From positions 1 to 49,559 of the IMG/VR virus record IMGVR_UViG_2563366953_000002: a stretch of DNA of 49,559 nt. The stretch is one strand, 5' to 3'. This document shows positions 25,143 through 43,001 of the stretch, in pieces. Position numbers and translations under genes: made by a program. Below the pieces are notes generated by a model. That model saw nothing but the letters and a program-made list of their open reading frames with translations, ran no database searches and was not told the origin of the DNA. Positions within the stretch are counted from its first letter, which is position 1. The number at the start of each line of letters is the position of its first letter. The stretch comes from a virus. Taxonomy: Duplodnaviria; Heunggongvirae; Uroviricota; Caudoviricetes.

Positions 25143-25160
25143 AAAATCAGGATATTTTTG

Positions 25161-26597
25161 ATGGCAGAGATCGAGATTACTGGCGGCCTCGGTTCAGCAC
25201 TGATGCATATTCTTGAGGCTGAAGAAATTCAGCCGGGAACCGACATTGGCTATGAATTGTGTAAGCAGCTGTGGCAATTCCATCCTCTGGGCGGAAAACT
25301 TGTCGAAAAACCCATACTGATGGCGATGTGTAAGCCGCGCCAGTATAACGTGGAGACAGACCCTGACGAGAGGGTTGTGAGGCGTTTTCAGGAGGTATGG
25401 GAACGCATGAAGGTCAACGAGAAGATTAAAAATCTGTTTTTTCTGTCTCGTTGCTACGGTGCTGCAGCGATCGGCGTGGGCACCGACAGCGTTCCATGTC
25501 GTGAACCGCTTCCGACGTTCGGACTGACAGAAGATGACGTGTATATCAACGCGTGGGACCCGTTGAACGCTTCCGGTTCGATGGTGACTGACCAGAACCC
25601 CAACAGCCCGTTTTTCCAGGAAGCCAATAAAAAACTGAAGATTGGTGGGAAAGACTGGCATCCGTCACGCACACTGAAAATCTTCAACGGCACACCGATT
25701 TATCTGGAGTTTCAGAGTTCATCGTTCGGATTCACCGGACGAAGTGTGTTTCAGCGCGTTCTTTATTCCCTGAAATCCTATATCAACACGATGGAGGCGA
25801 ATGATCTCGTCAGCCAGAAGGCGGGCGTACTGGTAGCTAAAGTTGTGCAGTACGGTTCGAAACTTGACGGGATCATGGCTGCCGCCACGGGACGAAAAAG
25901 GGAAAACGTCAAAGAGGCAAAAAATAAAGGTGTGCTTAGTATCGGGAAGGATGAGGACGTTACCTCGCTAAATCTACAAAACATCGATGGTGCGCTAAAC
26001 GCTGCACGCGACAATATTATTTCCGATATTGCGTCAGGGAGTGACGTTCCGGCGATCCTCATCAAAGAGGAAGCCTTTTCGAATGGTTTCGGTGAGGGGA
26101 CCGAAGATTCGAAAGCCATCAGCCAGTATATCGATGGTGTACGCCAGCAGATTGAACCCGTGATGGATTATTTCGAACGCCTGGTGCAGTACATCGCCTG
26201 GAACGAGGAATTTTATCAGTCGCTGAAAAATGATTACCCGGACATCATAACTGATGACTATAAAACCACGTTTTACCAGTGGCGACGTGAATTTACCGCG
26301 ACATGGCAGGAGCTGGTGGAGGAGTCGCCGGACAAACGCCGGGAAAGCGACAGTAAAGTGATTCAACAGGCGATAGCACTTTTCTCTGCCGTGTCGCCAC
26401 AGGTTGATCCTGAAAACCGTGCCGCCGTCACTGAATGGCTGGCAAGCCTTGTTAATGCCACGCAAACCTATGGCGAAGCTCCACTCATCATTGATGTGGA
26501 CGCGCTGGCGAATTATGAACCACCGAAGCAGGAGACGCCTGATGGCAATTTCCAGCCGGGCGGTGAGGAAGAAGAAACGGATCAGGACGCTATATGA
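25161..26597 (+). CDS. putative portal protein
   Basis: 478-aa ORF directly after TerL (ORF track start is TTG at 25158; ATG at 25161); acidic C-terminus. Assigned by synteny and size. Confidence 0.5.
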   Translation: MAEIEITGGLGSALMHILEAEEIQPGTDIGYELCKQLWQFHPLGGKLVEKPILMAMCKPRQYNVETDPDERVVRRFQEVWERMKVNEKIKNLFFLSRCYGAAAIGVGTDSVPCREPLPTFGLTEDDVYINAWDPLNASGSMVTDQNPNSPFFQEANKKLKIGGKDWHPSRTLKIFNGTPIYLEFQSSSFGFTGRSVFQRVLYSLKSYINTMEANDLVSQKAGVLVAKVVQYGSKLDGIMAAATGRKRENVKEAKNKGVLSIGKDEDVTSLNLQNIDGALNAARDNIISDIASGSDVPAILIKEEAFSNGFGEGTEDSKAISQYIDGVRQQIEPVMDYFERLVQYIAWNEEFYQSLKNDYPDIITDDYKTTFYQWRREFTATWQELVEESPDKRRESDSKVIQQAIALFSAVSPQVDPENRAAVTEWLASLVNATQTYGEAPLIIDVDALANYEPPKQETPDGNFQPGGEEEETDQDAI

Positions 26598-35073: not shown

Positions 35074-35147
35074 ATGTAAAAACAGCAGCTCAGTTTCGTG
35101 AGCTGCGTAAATGCACGACGCCGGGAGGTGTATTGAATGTCAGGTAA
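34456..35147 (+). CDS. tail assembly chaperone, predicted -1 frameshift-extended isoform
   Basis: The -1 frame is open from the T8 tract (34835-34842) to a stop at 35147, which overlaps the tape-measure start; this matches the conserved G/GT-type chaperone frameshift arrangement. Confidence 0.45.
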
Positions 35148-37125
35148 TCAGATGCCAGTTCTGACACTGGACGTTAATGAAGAACATCTTAAGCGACTTG
35201 AGGCGATATTTGAAAAGTATCGCAACGGGCTGATGATTGGCCCTGCCGGTACGCCGCTTAAAATACCTTCAAATACAGGTCCGGCAGGTGGCGCCCGGCA
35301 GACAACCACAGGCGGAGAAGCCAATCAGGCTCCCAGGAAACCATCTTCACCCGAGCCAGTTTCGGCTGCTTCCACTGATGGACGTTTAAGGGATGAAAAA
35401 GGGCGCTTTGTTGGAAGCGGGAAAACACCTGATTCGCTGGTGAGCAACTATAAAGGTCGCGGCGAAACGATGTTTGATAAGTACCTCAACGGGCTGGGTA
35501 AAAACGCTCAGGGAACGCTGAAAACTTACAAACAGATCAATTCAACGCTTAAAACGACTAATTCCCGGTTAAAAAGCCTGTTTAAAACCACGGTTTCGTG
35601 GGGGGCGAAAATAGCTGCAATAGGGGTTGCGGGGCCGTTTGGCTACGGCTATATGGCGAGTAAAGTCGCAGCACAGTATAGCGTGGCTCAGGGGTTAGGG
35701 ATGGAAACCGCCCAAATGCAGGCCGCACGTGCCACCTATTCACCATATTTTTCTGGCACAGAAGAACTGGTTCAGCATCTGGCGAACGCACAGAAAAATC
35801 CAAACGATCCAAACTATGCTGGTCTGGTTAGTCTTGGAATTGATCCGCGAGATGGTGCAGCAAAGAATCTGCCCAAACTTATGAGTGCGCTTGCATCTCT
35901 AGTTAAGCAATATAAAGGTTCAGGACTTACTCAGGGGATTCTCAACGGACAAGGACTTGGATTTGTTGATGTCGCGACAACTAACCAGGTGGAAGCGAAT
36001 CTGGACAAGATCCCCCAACTGAATGAGAAATTTGCAGCAAATACCCGGTTACTCGGCGCTTACCTCACGCCAGCTATGCAGTCAGGTTATCAGGACACGG
36101 TGAGTAACCTGATGGTAAATGGAAACAGAATATCAAATTCCTGGTATGCAGCTCTTGCCAGATATAACCCATTAATCAGAGGTGCATCTGATGGGCTGAC
36201 ATCCAATATTGAAGGTTTTCTGAATGGTGGAAATTTTAAACAAATTCTCACTGAGGCTGGAGAAGGGCTGGAGAAACTTGGTAAGTGGCTAAATAGTGAA
36301 CAGTTTAAAAATGATCTTGATGATTTTTCTCTGGCGGTGAGCCGTATTGCAAAAGCAATATGGTCAGCTATCAAATGGATCGGCGGGGAAGATAAATATC
36401 TCCCCGGAACCGGAGTTGGTGCTGAACAGGCAGATCCAGTTCTTGTGGCATTTGGGGATAAATATCTCGGCGGTGCGTTGCCGGGAGCAAACCCGATGAC
36501 AAATCAGTATACGGGTGAGTTTTATAAACAGGATGATGTATATAAAAATTACCGTATGCCTAATGATTTAAAGAGAAATATTCAGAACTTTGTAGAGCAA
36601 GCCAATAATACTTATCGACTTCCTAAAAATATGATGTCTGCAATTGCAGAAGCCGAATCATCGTGGAATCCCCTAGCGAAAGGAAGCCCCGATGAAAATG
36701 GCAATTATGCTAAGGGGTTGTGGCAATTCTGGGATAGCACCGCAAAACAGTATGGTCTGGTGGGAGATGATGTTTATGATCCAAATAAATCCACTCTTGC
36801 GGCTGGCCGCTTTTTAAATGATCTGAATCGGCGTTATAAAGGCGATGTGGCAAAAATGCTTACGGCATATAACGGAGGTCGTATTGATAGAGATGGAAAT
36901 CTAAGTTTGAGAATGGAGACTGTAAAATATTTAATTAAATTATTGCCTCAGATACAGGGAGCCTTGGATCAACACCCTGGTATTATGAATCAGCTAAGAA
37001 ATGCCAAAGATAACCTTCAGGGTGCTGGCAAAAATGCCCGCGCAATAATTGAGCTTCAGGTGCGACAATCGCCAGGTTCCGACATACTGGCACAACTCGC
37101 CGGAACGCAACAAATACCGGGGTAA
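35137..37125 (+). CDS. tail tape-measure protein with lytic-transglycosylase-like domain
   Basis: 662 aa; C-terminal region has SLT-like motifs (..AEAESSWNPLAKGSPDENGNYAKGLWQFWDSTAKQYGL..); position after the frameshifting chaperone. Confidence 0.6.
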   Translation: MSGNQMPVLTLDVNEEHLKRLEAIFEKYRNGLMIGPAGTPLKIPSNTGPAGGARQTTTGGEANQAPRKPSSPEPVSAASTDGRLRDEKGRFVGSGKTPDSLVSNYKGRGETMFDKYLNGLGKNAQGTLKTYKQINSTLKTTNSRLKSLFKTTVSWGAKIAAIGVAGPFGYGYMASKVAAQYSVAQGLGMETAQMQAARATYSPYFSGTEELVQHLANAQKNPNDPNYAGLVSLGIDPRDGAAKNLPKLMSALASLVKQYKGSGLTQGILNGQGLGFVDVATTNQVEANLDKIPQLNEKFAANTRLLGAYLTPAMQSGYQDTVSNLMVNGNRISNSWYAALARYNPLIRGASDGLTSNIEGFLNGGNFKQILTEAGEGLEKLGKWLNSEQFKNDLDDFSLAVSRIAKAIWSAIKWIGGEDKYLPGTGVGAEQADPVLVAFGDKYLGGALPGANPMTNQYTGEFYKQDDVYKNYRMPNDLKRNIQNFVEQANNTYRLPKNMMSAIAEAESSWNPLAKGSPDENGNYAKGLWQFWDSTAKQYGLVGDDVYDPNKSTLAAGRFLNDLNRRYKGDVAKMLTAYNGGRIDRDGNLSLRMETVKYLIKLLPQIQGALDQHPGIMNQLRNAKDNLQGAGKNARAIIELQVRQSPGSDILAQLAGTQQIPG

Positions 37126-39995: not shown

Positions 39996-40202
39996 ATGCC
40001 GAGGGATTCGTCACATACTTACGCCTGTTGCCTGGATCACTTGTACTGCATTAGTGGCGGGTACATTGATTTACCTGAAAAACTGATAAAGGAGTTACGA
40101 GAAATGGGCGAAAGATTACCCAACTGGAAATTCCTGTTGATATGGTGTGTGTTTTTCTTATTTGGACTATCCGCTTTGATTCAGGCGATCCGGTGGCGGT
40201 AA
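39996..40202 (+). CDS. small C-terminally hydrophobic protein, copy 1
   Basis: 68-aa ORF; an internal ATG near 40103 is preceded by AAAGGAG; C-terminus ..LIKELREMGERLPNWKFLLIWCVFFLFGLSALIQAIRWR is one TM helix. Confidence 0.35.
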   Translation: MPRDSSHTYACCLDHLYCISGGYIDLPEKLIKELREMGERLPNWKFLLIWCVFFLFGLSALIQAIRWR

Positions 40203-40321
40203 TTTTTACATAACTTTACATATGGCAATGAAAAAACAACAAATTACTTCATGGATGATTTGCTACGTGAACTCAAGCATAGAATGACATGGTGTTAAGT
40301 AATTGTTACAAAGGGATTGGT

Positions 40322-40468
40322 ATGAAGTTTCTTTTCATTGTTTATAAATTACTAGTTGAGATTCGAGTTATGGGCGAGAAATTTCCCAATTGGAAGTTTT
40401 TACTTATCTGGTTGGTCTTTCTGATTCTGGCGTCTGGATATTTTGTTGGGCAGATCCGATGGTGGTGA
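40322..40468 (+). CDS. small C-terminally hydrophobic protein, copy 2 (paralog of copy 1)
   Basis: Hand-translated 48-aa ORF (AAGGGA upstream): MKFLFIVYKLLVEIRVMGEKFPNWKFLLIWLVFLILASGYFVGQIRWW; conserved with copy 1 over about 40 residues. Confidence 0.35.
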   Translation: MKFLFIVYKLLVEIRVMGEKFPNWKFLLIWLVFLILASGYFVGQIRWW

Positions 40469-40475
40469 GGGCACG

Positions 40476-40823
40476 ATGAGGACATGGGGCCGCGTCACCG
40501 ACGTGAACGGCAATAAAAAATGGGTTGCTGTAGAATCTGACGCCAACGGTGATTTCTCCTACGGCTGGCTGACGACGCTCATTCAGACGTTAAAGCTGGG
40601 GGTGGGGGAGTCGCCGTTTTACGCGAATTACGGCATTCCAGCACAGCAGTGCATCGTGCAGCAGATTTACCCGGACTACTATGTGAACATGGTTCAGCAA
40701 CAGTTTGCCGGGTATTTTGCATCACTGGCAATTTCAAGGGTAGATGGGGCTGAGAACCCCACCTATAACATCGATGTTGTGTTTTTTAATGGGACCAGTT
40801 ACCGGATGCAGGTTCCGGTGTGA
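40476..40823 (+). CDS. putative baseplate protein
   Basis: ORF track start is TTG at 40443; ATG at 40476 follows GGTGAGG; 115 aa; lies between the spike-like and J-like genes. Confidence 0.35.
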
Positions 40824-41173
40824 GGCAAATTTTCGGGCATCAGTTGGGCCAGTGGCGTGTTAAGAAGTTCATCGCGTGGCATGACAATCCATCCACTTTT
40901 GCGTAGTAAGTGAATTGCCCATTCTGTGGTGATAACTGAGCCTGATTTGTGGTGCTCAATGTGGGTAACCGAGCCGTTTCTGACGCGCATGATGATGTCA
41001 ACATTCAGAGGGGATTGTGTGCTGGTGGTATCTTCGCGCAGCTTCTTCTCGCACTCGATGAAGTATCGGCGGATCTGGCGTCCTTTTTCGTTGCGCTCGA
41101 CCATTGCCAGTTCTTTGGCGGTGTCCAGGGTGAGGTGGTAGTCCTTGCGGCGGCGGCCTGGAGTTTTCGCCAA
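40799..41173 (-). pseudogene. antirepressor C-terminal-domain fragment lacking a proper start
   Basis: Frame opens with TTG directly after an in-frame stop, with no ATG or SD. The product (..[35 protein letters not shown]..) resembles the C-terminal domain of phage antirepressors, which normally follows an N-terminal domain. Confidence 0.45.
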
Positions 41174-41185
41174 ATTTGGCGAAAA
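41164..41185. repeat. perfect 22-bp palindrome TTTTCGCCAAATTTGGCGAAAA
   Basis: Read directly from the sequence; overlaps the 5' end of the antirepressor fragment at the border of AT-rich DNA; no flanking U-tract. Confidence 0.6.
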
Positions 41186-41213
41186 TAGAATGTAGTCTAA
41201 AAAAGTCTAACAA

Positions 41214-41753
41214 CTACTTATTTTCAGACACACATTTTTCAAAATTTTTTATCGAGTCATTGAAAACTGAATTCATTATCTCATAAGTTTTATGATCTAT
41301 CTTTTTGTCTAGATAATCTTTATTGTTTTTCTTTATTTTTTCCTTAGTATCAGTAATGGCTTTTTTACAAATTTGATAATTTATCTGCTGATCGTTTAAA
41401 CCGCCTCCATTGACAATTAGAGAAATAGCTGTATTCATGTCTTGTATATTGTAGGAATAGTGTAATGTGTCATTGGTTGGATGGCTGGGATTATCATAAT
41501 AAACATTACCGAATTTCATTAACATTATTCCCGATTTCCCATAAACAGAATCAGATAAGTATGCGGCATTCATATTTCCGGCAGTAAAATTATCAGTATG
41601 ACATATAAAACGCCGACCATATTGAAGCTGTAATTTATGCATAGCATCGTTGCAGGCAGCTCTTATTAGACGGGTATGATTATTGTCTTCTTCTTAAGCG
41701 CATACTGAAAATGAAAGAGTGGATGCAATTAGCAATGAAATTAATTTCTTCAT
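41214..41753 (-). pseudogene. AT-rich secreted-protein gene interrupted by one in-frame TAA after the signal peptide
   Basis: Hand translation: ATG at 41753 gives MKKLISLLIASTLSFSVCA, then TAA (41694-41696), then the same frame continues EEDNNHTRLIRAACNDA-MHKLQ... through the 142-aa ORF 41214-41642; four Cys in the mature part. Confidence 0.45.
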
Positions 41754-41774
41754 AAATTACCCTTGAGATTAACT

Positions 41775-43001
41775 ATGTCAGAAATACCAATTACTATGAC
41801 CAGTGCGGGTGCGCAGCCTACGCCACCCAATGATTTGCTTGCGAATCTTATCACCAGGGTTGCTGAAAAAGTACCTGGATATACAGCCAACCTTCCGGCG
41901 GGACTTATTACAGACCTTGCCAGCACGGCAGTCGGGGCGGTGGCATTAATAGACCAGGCGCGGGTTGATCTTATTAACTCCGTAAGCCCATACGGCGCGA
42001 ATATTCCGTTACTGATGCAACTCGGAAACATTTATGGAGCACAGAAGGGATTAAGTACAAATACGGCGGTATACGTGGTGTTTGAGGCGTTGCCGGGATT
42101 TGGTATCCCTAAAGGATTTGTGGTTGGAGACGGTAACTACCAGTATGCGGTTTCCCGCGATACGGTGGTGCCGGAAAATGGGCAGACTGAGCCAGTCTAC
42201 TGTGTGGCCACAACGTCAGGCTCATGGGCTGTACCGGAAGGGACCGTGACGCAGGTCATTACATCAGTACCCAAAGACCAGCCTGTAAAATGCACGAACC
42301 TTACCGCAGGAATGCCCGGTCAGGAGGCGCAGACGTGGGCATCTTACCGCGCCGAAGTCATGGAGTCCGGCATGTTTGGTGTGCAGGGAACACCGGATTG
42401 CTTTAAAGCGATGCTCAAATCAGTAAGCGGTGTGCGCGAAAACCTGATTTCTTTCCGGCAGTCGTCGCTGGGGAAATGGGTTGCGGTTGTTGGTGGCGGT
42501 GATCCGTATGACGTGGCTTATGCGATTTACAAATCTGTACCGGATATTTCGAAACTGACCAACGATGTAAGCAATCCATCCGGTGCGGCAGTGGAAAAAC
42601 GCACGGTTTCAATAACCGTTTCGCCGGACGTTTATCAGGTGCCGTTCGTTATCCCGTCATCACAAAACGTCATGGTGCTAATCACCTGGAACACGGTGTC
42701 TGATGATTATGTTGACCCGGCGGGTATTGCTATGGCTGTGCAGCAAAACGTTGCTGATTACATCAATTCTATTGAAGTCGGTCACCCGATAAATCTGCTG
42801 CGAATCCAGGATATTTTTACCAGCTCCGTAAAATTGCTGGTTGATGCGACGTTGATCTCAACAATCAGTGTGAGCATTGGTATTAACGGTCATATTGTTC
42901 TTCCGGCAAAAGACACAAGCCTGGTTTATGGCGATACCTATTCCTATTTTTCGACGGTGGCATCACAGGTTCAGGTCAATAAGTATGCAATATCTGACTG
43001 A
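41775..43001 (+). CDS. baseplate J-like protein
   Basis: ORF track start is TTG at 41763; ATG at 41775; 408 aa; followed by a gpI-like gene and tail fibres. Confidence 0.5.
   Translation: MSEIPITMTSAGAQPTPPNDLLANLITRVAEKVPGYTANLPAGLITDLASTAVGAVALIDQARVDLINSVSPYGANIPLLMQLGNIYGAQKGLSTNTAVYVVFEALPGFGIPKGFVVGDGNYQYAVSRDTVVPENGQTEPVYCVATTSGSWAVPEGTVTQVITSVPKDQPVKCTNLTAGMPGQEAQTWASYRAEVMESGMFGVQGTPDCFKAMLKSVSGVRENLISFRQSSLGKWVAVVGGGDPYDVAYAIYKSVPDISKLTNDVSNPSGAAVEKRTVSITVSPDVYQVPFVIPSSQNVMVLITWNTVSDDYVDPAGIAMAVQQNVADYINSIEVGHPINLLRIQDIFTSSVKLLVDATLISTISVSIGINGHIVLPAKDTSLVYGDTYSYFSTVASQVQVNKYAISD

What the first reader, a model, noticed from the sequence alone, without database searches (positions are those of the whole stretch)
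41214..41753. Secreted AT-rich cargo protein with a single in-frame TAA after its signal peptide, divergent from the baseplate gene
Reading the minus strand from the ATG at 41753 gives a signal peptide (MKKLISLLIASTLSFSVCA), then TAA, then the same frame continues through the 142-aa ORF. A single nonsense codon therefore separates an export signal from an otherwise intact four-Cys mature domain. The start is only 21 bp from the divergent baseplate J-like start codon, so its promoter must lie inside that gene. It is either a recently inactivated secreted factor or an intact gene miscalled at one base.
Basis: seen in the sequence. Interest (0 to 1): 0.5.

Follow-up and report, generated by a model that had tools for sequence, protein, structure and literature searches.

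The report
Knocked-out secreted prophage accessory gene
A small accessory gene wedged between two baseplate genes of an E. coli prophage normally makes an exported four-cysteine protein of unknown function, but here one C-to-T change puts a stop codon right after its export signal, so it is a young and otherwise undamaged pseudogene, which is an ordinary event.

Summary
On the minus strand, ATG 41753 opens a 19-codon signal peptide, followed by TAA (41696-41694), and the same frame runs on to TAG 41214. The stop is a CAA(Gln20)->TAA transition. 24 of the 25 complete E. coli genomes carrying the gene have CAA and an annotated 179-aa CDS. It is not a miscall: the TAA is in SC418 and in 10 of 10 further contigs examined from independent assemblies, with differing flanks. 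The signal peptide is real. Homologs at 33-46% identity (Serratia, metagenomes) keep it, keep four invariant Cys, and occupy the same slot 21-27 nt from the baseplate J start. Family dN/dS is about 0.06-0.2. Apart from the stop, the window allele has no private amino-acid change, so the knockout is recent. The gene fits the moron pattern: 31% GC against about 50% in the flanks, and inserted where distant relatives have the two baseplate genes abutting, in a slot holding at least seven cargo types. No Pfam, PHROG, NCBIfam or PADLOC family matches. A confident AlphaFold2 model (pLDDT 93) has no whole-domain structural match. Function is inferred only: an envelope-acting lysogen factor, possibly superinfection exclusion.

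The parts
41697..41753 (-). Start codon (41753-41751) and the 19-codon Sec-type signal peptide MKKLISLLIASTLSFSVCA. It has a positively charged n-region (KK), a 14-residue hydrophobic core, and V-C-A at positions -3 to -1.
   Evidence: The signal peptide is conserved in type but not in sequence across homologs (VCA, VYA, AYA, SYA, VLA, VFS, SHS, SHA before the cleavage site). Cys18 is not conserved, so this is not a lipobox.
41694..41696 (-). Premature TAA stop at codon 20, which is the first residue of the mature protein. It is a C->T transition of CAA (Gln).
   Evidence: CAA in the three intact orthologs read directly (W, P393-F10, M8); 24 of 25 complete E. coli genomes with the gene lack the TAA allele. 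TAA in SC418 and in 10 of 10 other contigs examined.
41217..41693 (-). Intact but untranslated mature-domain coding sequence (159 codons, four invariant Cys at codons 34, 51, 129, 174), followed by TAG at 41216-41214.
   Evidence: dN/dS is 0.06-0.2 across alleles. The AlphaFold2 model has pLDDT 92.9 and pTM 0.80.
41640..41642 (-). Internal ATG (Met38), the start of the 142-aa ORF that PGAP annotates as a CDS in SC418. It is the only in-frame start after the stop and has no Shine-Dalgarno sequence upstream.
41760..41764 (-). Shine-Dalgarno-like AAGGG, 6 nt upstream of the signal-peptide ATG.
   Evidence: Homologs also have an SD at this position, e.g. AGGAG in the Serratia locus L013.
41754..41774 (.). 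21-nt divergent intergenic region between this gene and baseplate J.
   Evidence: The gap is 21-27 nt in all homologous loci.
41775..43001 (+). Baseplate J/gp47-family gene, which forms the right border of the cargo slot.
40799..41197 (-). N-terminally truncated AntA/AntB antirepressor remnant just downstream, on the same strand. About 420 nt are deleted relative to strain P393-F10.
40476..40823 (+). 115-aa baseplate-module gene (phrog_7986), which forms the left border of the cargo slot.

Best explanation
This is a young nonsense pseudogene of a prophage accessory ('moron') gene. In its intact form the gene is read leftwards, opposite to the tail genes, from ATG 41753 behind an AAGGG ribosome-binding site. 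The 179-aa precursor would be exported by the Sec pathway and cut by signal peptidase I after Val-Cys-Ala19. That releases a roughly 160-aa periplasmic protein, probably held by two disulfides (Cys34-Cys51 and Cys129-Cys174, inferred from the predicted helices and strands, not measured). The protein belongs to an uncharacterised family confined to one Mu-like baseplate module of Rac-SA53-type prophages in Enterobacterales. In this window a single CAA->TAA change converts the first mature residue (Gln20) into a stop. Ribosomes therefore make only the 19-residue signal peptide. The only downstream in-frame start (Met38) has no ribosome-binding site, and any product from it would lack both the export signal and the first invariant Cys, so the allele is functionally null. 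The allele is inherited and circulating, not an assembly error. What the intact protein does is inferred, not shown. The most likely role, at roughly 35% by my estimate, is an envelope-acting factor made by the lysogen, such as superinfection exclusion at the cell-wall or periplasm stage of tail penetration.
For: Shown: the reading frame and stop. CAA is present in the three intact orthologs read directly, and 24 of 25 complete genomes lie under a CDS and lack the TAA allele. The same TAA is in SC418 and in 10 of 10 further contigs, with non-identical flanks. The window is not SC418: its late region is 98.9% identical and its early region is different. The signal peptide and four Cys are kept in homologs at 33-46% identity. 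The apparently signal-less forms are artefacts. dN/dS is 0.06-0.2, and apart from the stop the window allele has no private amino-acid change. There is an SD before the first ATG and none before Met38, which is the only in-frame start after the stop. Moron signature: 31% GC against about 50%; the two flanking baseplate genes abut (2-13 nt) in distant relatives but are 590-3,138 nt apart with variable cargo in close relatives. Dispensability: an independent, multiply broken copy exists in L034/L062. Supporting the inferred envelope role: an export signal with invariant Cys pairs; most other cargoes in the same slot are also signal-peptide, lipobox or membrane proteins; the protein evolves faster than its baseplate neighbours (33-43% against 54-82% identity); and the gene is strictly linked to one tail module that carries an SLT-domain protein.
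Against: No promoter or terminator was detected by consensus scans, so expression in the lysogen is unproven. Signal-peptide cleavage was judged from sequence rules only, because no dedicated predictor was available. Nothing links the protein to any known exclusion or inhibitor family by sequence or by structure. The commonest cargo in the slot is a cytoplasmic HSDR_N nuclease-like protein, so the slot is not reserved for envelope proteins. The gene lies directly upstream of an antirepressor gene in most loci. That makes constitutive leftward transcription in a lysogen awkward unless there is a terminator between the two.
Confidence: 0.85

Rival explanations
1. Sequencing or assembly error: the gene is intact and one base was miscalled (true CAA).
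For: Only one base separates the window from intact alleles. Only 1 of 25 complete genomes with the gene shares the TAA.
Against: The identical TAA is found in SC418 and in all 10 other contigs examined, from separate NCBI, ENA and Logan assemblies. The exact 142-aa product is indexed in 28 blocks of the collection. Flanks differ by 0-19 mismatches per 3.4 kb, so these are not one assembly repeated.
Confidence: 0.02
2. The 142-aa ORF from Met38 is the real (cytoplasmic) gene, and the upstream signal-peptide-like reading is fortuitous.
For: PGAP annotates exactly this 142-aa CDS in SC418. Database entries of 141, 119 and 101 aa exist.
Against: The 101-aa entries overlie intact 179-codon ORFs, and the 141-aa entry is cut by a contig end. 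Every full-length homolog, down to 33% identity, has an N-terminal signal peptide or lipobox contiguous with the domain. Met38 has no SD, while the first ATG has one. A Met38 product would lose invariant Cys34 and most of helix 1.
Confidence: 0.03
3. Selected loss: the null allele spread because losing the exported protein benefits the lysogen or the phage, rather than through neutral decay.
For: The null allele is on at least 24 contigs with varied flanks. An independent, heavily decayed copy exists, and there is a probable third truncation, P0025, ending at residue 154. The sister E. coli W allele has 6 nonsynonymous and 0 synonymous differences from the window allele. By my arithmetic that has p of about 0.003 if omega were 0.15. 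All null carriers also have the truncated ant.
Against: The same facts fit relaxed constraint plus hitch-hiking on a successful prophage. There are no phenotype data, and carrier counts are biased by what has been sequenced. The P0025 lesion could not be checked at DNA level.
Confidence: 0.1
4. Programmed stop or recoding: the TAA is a regulatory feature, with low-level readthrough or reinitiation setting the dose of the exported protein.
For: The stop sits exactly at the signal-peptide/mature-domain junction, and the downstream frame is pristine.
Against: The three intact orthologs read directly, the more divergent alleles and the distant homologs all carry a sense codon (Gln, Glu, Asp or Ser) at that position. 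UAA followed by G is an efficient terminator in E. coli (general knowledge). No recoding signal is evident, and the pristine downstream frame is explained by the mutation being recent.
Confidence: 0.01

Closest known systems
Phage morons in tail operons, e.g. HK97 gene 15 (superinfection exclusion) and lambda lom/bor, as reviewed in 'The moron comes of age' (PMC3594210)
   Same: Extra DNA sits between tail-module genes that are adjacent in related phages. GC content is clearly different from the neighbours. Cargo is interchangeable between near-identical phages. The product is targeted to the envelope.
   Different: No promoter or terminator of its own could be shown. It is transcribed antiparallel to the tail genes with only 21 nt to the neighbouring start. 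The protein family is unrelated to gp15, Lom or Bor. Here the gene is inactivated.
T4 Spackle (gp61.3), a periplasmic inhibitor of the tail-spike lysozyme gp5 (PMC7677548, PMC7650644)
   Same: A small phage-encoded protein with a cleaved periplasmic targeting signal, helix-rich and disulfide-bonded, encoded by a phage whose tail carries a peptidoglycan-cleaving domain (here an SLT-domain protein).
   Different: There is no sequence or structural similarity. The mature protein is twice the size (about 160 against 75 aa), with a beta-sheet plus a long alpha-hairpin rather than a flat helical bundle. It is a prophage gene, not a lytic early gene. No binding or inhibition data exist.
Receptor-masking lipoproteins: T5 Llp (PMC9586334) and Cor of HK022/N15/phi80 (PMC3594210)
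   Same: Small exported proteins encoded next to tail or receptor-binding genes that protect the infected cell or lysogen from superinfection.
   Different: Those are lipoproteins acting on FhuA. This family has a signal-peptidase-I type site, and Cys18 is not conserved. Only the long form P0010 has a lipobox-like start. No receptor is known.
Bacterial periplasmic lysozyme inhibitors (Ivy, MliC/PliC, PliG, PliI, LprI)
   Same: Periplasmic, small, Cys-containing. Another cargo of the same slot (L049) gives a sub-threshold LprI hit.
   Different: This family gives no Pfam hit to any of them, and its predicted fold is not the beta-rich inhibitor fold.

Membership tests
Phage moron (definition in PMC3594210) | An obvious addition: extra DNA between genes that are adjacent in related phages | tested here: met
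   In three distant relatives of the module (L091-L093, baseplate J 34-46% identical) the 115-aa gene and baseplate J are 2-13 nt apart. In close relatives the gap is 590-3,138 nt with variable content.
Phage moron (definition in PMC3594210) | [quoted passage not shown] | tested here: met
   31.1% against 49.9% (baseplate J) and 47.8% (window). All homologs are 31-37% against about 50% in the flanks.
Phage moron (definition in PMC3594210) | Own promoter | tested here: inconclusive
   No sigma-70 consensus match upstream of 41753. The 21-nt gap forces any promoter into the baseplate J coding sequence. The upstream alignment is dominated by coding constraint.
Phage moron (definition in PMC3594210) | Own terminator | tested here: inconclusive
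   The scan found no intrinsic terminator. A 9-bp hairpin follows the stop codon (about 41190-41169) but has no T-run.
Phage moron (definition in PMC3594210) | Expressed from the repressed prophage | not testable with these tools
   Needs transcript data from lysogens.
Sec / signal peptidase I exported protein | N-terminal positive n-region, hydrophobic h-region, and small residues at -3 and -1 | tested here: met
   MKK + LISLLIASTLSFSV + V-C-A|Q. The same pattern holds in all full-length homologs despite sequence divergence. This was judged by rule, as no dedicated predictor was available.
Bacterial lipoprotein (signal peptidase II) | Lipobox [LVI][ASTVI][GAS]C with an invariant Cys at +1 | tested here: not met
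   The sequence F-S-V-C18 is a poor lipobox. Cys18 is Tyr in P0002 and P0003 and absent in distant members. Only the P0010 long form has FYGC.
Nonsense pseudogene | Premature stop relative to intact orthologs, with no functional alternative start | tested here: met
   Gln20 CAA->TAA. Met38 is the only in-frame start, has no SD, and lies after invariant Cys34.
T4 Spackle family | Sequence or fold similarity to Spackle (flat helical bundle) | tested here: not met
T4 Spackle family | Binds and inhibits the tail-associated peptidoglycan hydrolase | not testable with these tools
   Requires biochemistry with the SLT-domain protein (window 35137-37125).
Known anti-phage defence systems (PADLOC) / PHROG families / Pfam / NCBIfam | Significant profile match | tested here: not met
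   PADLOC gave 0 hits. PHROG hits cover only the signal peptide (E >= 0.004). The best Pfam hit has E = 0.22. The best NCBIfam hit scores 19.7 bits against a cutoff of 150.

The most novel reading that the evidence does not exclude
The intact family could be a new, structurally unprecedented class of periplasmic superinfection-exclusion protein, specific to this Mu-like tail module. It might block the tail's SLT transglycosylase or the passage of the tail tube. Its long alpha-hairpin is the only element with structural analogues, including the TolC-docking hairpin of MexA at a non-significant E of about 0.5. On this reading, the repeated knock-outs seen in lysogens would reflect a cost of carrying it.
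Probability: 0.15. Interest if true: 0.55.

Novelty: new member of a known kind. Interest (0 to 1): 0.22.

Why it matters
The stop codon itself matters little, because point-inactivated accessory genes are routine in prophages. Two practical points follow. First, RefSeq/PGAP annotates the 142-aa remnant as a normal protein (WP_248698410) rather than a pseudogene, and several database 'proteins' of 101-142 aa are artefacts of the same gene. Second, the intact gene defines a rare, unannotated family: 8 clusters at 50% identity among 1.84 billion representatives, and no member in 185,579 species-representative genomes. The family is an exported four-Cys protein with a confident predicted fold that has no structural relative. 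It is fixed in one slot of one tail module, and that slot also swaps in nuclease-like and other envelope cargo. That makes the slot a compact natural library of candidate lysogen-protection genes that could be screened experimentally.

Tried and rejected
(1) Family assignment with Pfam, PHROGs, NCBIfam and PADLOC found nothing meaningful. The weak NCBIfam hits (WBM0748, PME inhibitor) fall on the low-complexity Lys/Asn-rich C-terminal hairpin and are far below cutoff.
(2) PDB sequence searches with the single protein and with the family profile found nothing.
(4) tblastn against GenBank phages and PLSDB plasmids gave no hit. The GTDB species-representative scan gave no hit.
(5) I tested whether the 101-aa, 119-aa and 141-aa database forms are independent truncations or true signal-less homologs. 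This was rejected for the 101-aa and 141-aa forms, which are start miscalls or a contig end. The 119-aa form was not examined.
(6) I tested whether rac62, the alternative cargo in the slot, is a hidden homolog. This was rejected (hhalign probability 0.2%).
(7) I tested whether the 93-aa antisense ORF (41750-42031) ending in ATGA on the start codon is an upstream operon partner. This was rejected as not conserved.
(8) Promoter and terminator consensus scans and an upstream alignment were uninformative.
(9) Literature searches for the phage name and the protein accessions found nothing about this gene.
Model coordinates for a disulfide-distance check were not available.

Full report
OBSERVATION. 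Reading the minus strand from ATG 41753 gives MKKLISLLIASTLSFSVCA, then TAA (41696-41694). The same frame then continues for 159 codons to TAG 41216-41214. The mechanical ORF list shows only the 142-aa piece from Met38 (41642). The baseplate J/gp47 gene starts at ATG 41775 on the plus strand, leaving a 21-nt gap.

WHAT THE STOP IS. The region occurs in 25 of 5,426 complete E. coli genomes. In E. coli W, P393-F10 and M8 the locus is annotated as one 179-aa CDS, and the alignment shows CAA (Gln20) where the window has TAA, a single C->T transition. A 73-nt probe centred on the stop is 100% identical only in strain SC418. The other 24 genomes differ from it at two positions, and there the stretch lies under a CDS.

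The window is not SC418. Its late region is 98.9% identical to SC418 over 96% of its length, and its early Rac-like region (intR/recE/recT) best matches other strains.

The exact 142-aa remnant is indexed in 28 blocks of the assembly collection. All 10 loci I read (NCBI, ENA and Logan sources) have TAA at codon 20, with flanks differing from the window by 0-19 mismatches per 3.4 kb. One of them (L020, GCA_000351625.1) is identical to the window. The stop is therefore a real, inherited, circulating allele and not a miscall.

IS THE SIGNAL PEPTIDE PART OF THE GENE? Yes. The word-indexed search found only close relatives (at least 82% identical), and these keep the N-terminal signal sequence. The exhaustive profile search found eight clusters at 50% identity in 1.84 billion representatives. 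Members at 33-46% identity all have an N-terminal signal peptide when full-length, with small residues at -3 and -1. One long form has a lipobox-like start plus an extra domain. Four Cys (34, 51, 129, 174) are invariant.

Cys18 in the signal peptide is not conserved, so this is not a lipoprotein. The forms that look signal-less are artefacts. The 101-aa entries sit on intact 179-codon ORFs. The 141-aa P0013 starts at base 7 of a 1,079-nt contig.

A Shine-Dalgarno sequence precedes the first ATG in the window and in homologs. Met38 is the only in-frame start after the stop and has no such sequence. Pairwise dN/dS of 0.06-0.2 shows a protein under purifying selection.

HOW OLD IS THE KNOCKOUT? 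Apart from Gln20->stop, the window allele has no private amino-acid change. It differs from SC418 by one synonymous site. There is no frameshift or second stop, so the lesion is recent.

In contrast, IMG/VR contig L034 (also L062/L067) carries an independently and heavily decayed copy. It has a 1-nt deletion in the signal-peptide region, GAA->TAA at codon 22, 11-nt and 37-nt deletions, and further 1-nt deletions. A protein record of 154 aa (P0025) suggests a third, C-terminal truncation, but I could not check it at DNA level. The sister allele in E. coli W shows 6 nonsynonymous and 0 synonymous differences from the window allele. By comparison with the other alleles, five of these are changes private to the W branch and the sixth (residue 134) is ambiguous. 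The gene is evidently dispensable and repeatedly lost.

CONTEXT. The window is a complete Rac-SA53-type prophage. It runs from the integrase at 1-1236, through recE/recT, to late genes on the plus strand with a Mu-like baseplate.

Every homolog found lies in the same place, divergent from the baseplate J start at 21-27 nt. This includes the Serratia quinivorans copy (43% identical) and the metagenomic copies (33% identical). The protein has diverged more than its neighbours: 33-43% identity, against 54-70% for baseplate J and 68-82% for the 115-aa gene.

A survey of 58 IMG/VR loci with this baseplate J gave the following. In three distant relatives the 115-aa gene abuts baseplate J (2-13 nt). 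In close relatives the interval is 590-3,138 nt and holds interchangeable AT-rich cargo:
- this family, 7 intact and 2 decayed;
- rac62-like and/or rac61-like signal-peptide proteins, 11 loci;
- a roughly 1,353-nt class, 22 loci, whose representative encodes a 391-aa HSDR_N nuclease-like protein;
- 11 others, including a lipoprotein whose first nine residues (MKKLISLLI) match ours, membrane proteins, and a signal-peptide protein with a sub-threshold LprI match.

rac62 is not a detectable homolog of this family. This is the classical moron pattern described in PMC3594210, although I could not demonstrate a promoter or terminator. In the window's lineage the adjacent antirepressor gene has also lost its N-terminus through a deletion of about 420 nt, and all TAA carriers share that deletion.

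WHAT THE PROTEIN IS. No Pfam, PHROG, NCBIfam or PADLOC family matches. There is no PDB sequence relative, and no copy in GenBank phages, PLSDB plasmids or GTDB species-representative genomes.

From the register of the antiparallel hairpin, mature Cys109 and Cys154 (precursor 129 and 174) should face each other, leaving Cys34-Cys51 as the other pair.

MECHANISM. Shown: the intact gene encodes a conserved protein with an N-terminal Sec-type signal sequence and four invariant Cys. The window allele terminates at the first mature codon, and no credible restart exists.

Inferred: export, cleavage after Ala19, DsbA-dependent disulfides and a periplasmic site of action.

Speculative: the role. I favour a lysogen-expressed envelope factor such as superinfection exclusion, by analogy with T4 Spackle (PMC7677548), T5 Llp (PMC9586334) and the Cor and HK97 gp15 morons (PMC3594210). 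The reasons are the export signal, the antiparallel orientation, the fast divergence, the strict linkage to one tail module that carries an SLT-domain protein, and the envelope-targeted nature of most sister cargoes. Membership in any of those families was tested and not met, so this is a 'works like' suggestion only.

VERDICT. The miscall alternative is rejected. The event is ordinary prophage gene decay. The modest interest lies in the unannotated exported-protein family and in the cargo hotspot it occupies.

Noticed in passing
window 39996-40202 (+) and 40289-40468 (+): Two tandem small ORFs sit in an AT-rich patch (GC 0.30-0.37). Their C-terminal ~40 residues (…GERLPNWKFLLIWCVFFLFGLSALIQAIRWR and …GEKFPNWKFLLIWLVFLILASGYFVGQIRWW) both match the 45-aa family phrog_6632, of unknown function (E 1e-16 and 4e-21). 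They look like duplicated single-pass membrane peptides. The equivalent stretch is unannotated in the SC418 RefSeq record.
   Followed up: partly
window 40799-41197 (-): An antirepressor (AntA/AntB) remnant lies directly downstream of the finding. A deletion of about 420 nt relative to strain P393-F10 removed its N-terminus and the spacer. E. coli W, SC418 and all TAA carriers examined share the deletion.
   Followed up: partly
L002 3098-3637 (E. coli W allele of the same gene): The E. coli W allele differs from the window allele by 6 nonsynonymous and 0 synonymous substitutions; five are private to the W branch by comparison with the other alleles and one (residue 134) is ambiguous. This suggests relaxed or positive selection in that lineage.
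   Followed up: partly
L034 2974-3481 (IMGVR_UViG_2778261502_000007); also L062: An independent, heavily decayed pseudogene of the same family (several deletions, frameshifts and a different stop) sits next to a baseplate J gene 98.8% identical to the window's.
   Followed up: yes
L037 3785-4960 (+) and about 21 other IMG/VR loci with the same 1,353-nt slot: The commonest cargo in the same baseplate slot is a 391-aa protein with a type I restriction enzyme R N-terminal (HSDR_N, PF04313/PF13588) nuclease-like domain. It is oriented with the tail genes, is a candidate defence gene, and has no PADLOC match. Only the representative L037 was read. The other loci were assigned by gap length.
   Followed up: partly
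L036 4548-4979 (-): Another slot cargo, a 143-aa lipoprotein (lipobox VVGC), shares its first nine residues MKKLISLLI with the finding's protein and shares the upstream DNA. The recombination junction between cargo cassettes therefore lies inside the signal-peptide coding sequence.
   Followed up: partly
L001 3209-3637 (SC418, WP_248698410.1): PGAP annotates the 142-aa post-stop remnant as an ordinary hypothetical protein rather than a pseudogene. Related database entries of 101 aa are start miscalls over intact ORFs.
   Followed up: yes
window 41750-42031 (-): A 93-aa ORF antisense to baseplate J ends in an ATGA overlap with the finding's start codon. It is open for 93-129 codons in the close E. 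coli relatives but only 4-44 codons in the divergent homologs, so it is spurious.
   Followed up: yes
RefSeq NZ_CP026085.1 and NZ_CM135829.1 (hits H2, H12): Two records labelled E. coli DH5alpha carry this full E. coli W-type prophage region, with hit statistics (identity, coverage, score) identical to those of E. coli W derivatives. This may indicate mislabelled strains.
   Followed up: no
window 48810-49559 (-); window 25158-26597 (+): An ORF at the prophage end corresponds to one annotated in SC418 as 'Zygote formation protein zyg1'. A head-module gene corresponds to one annotated there as an 'anti-CBASS protein Acb1 family protein'. Neither was examined.
   Followed up: no
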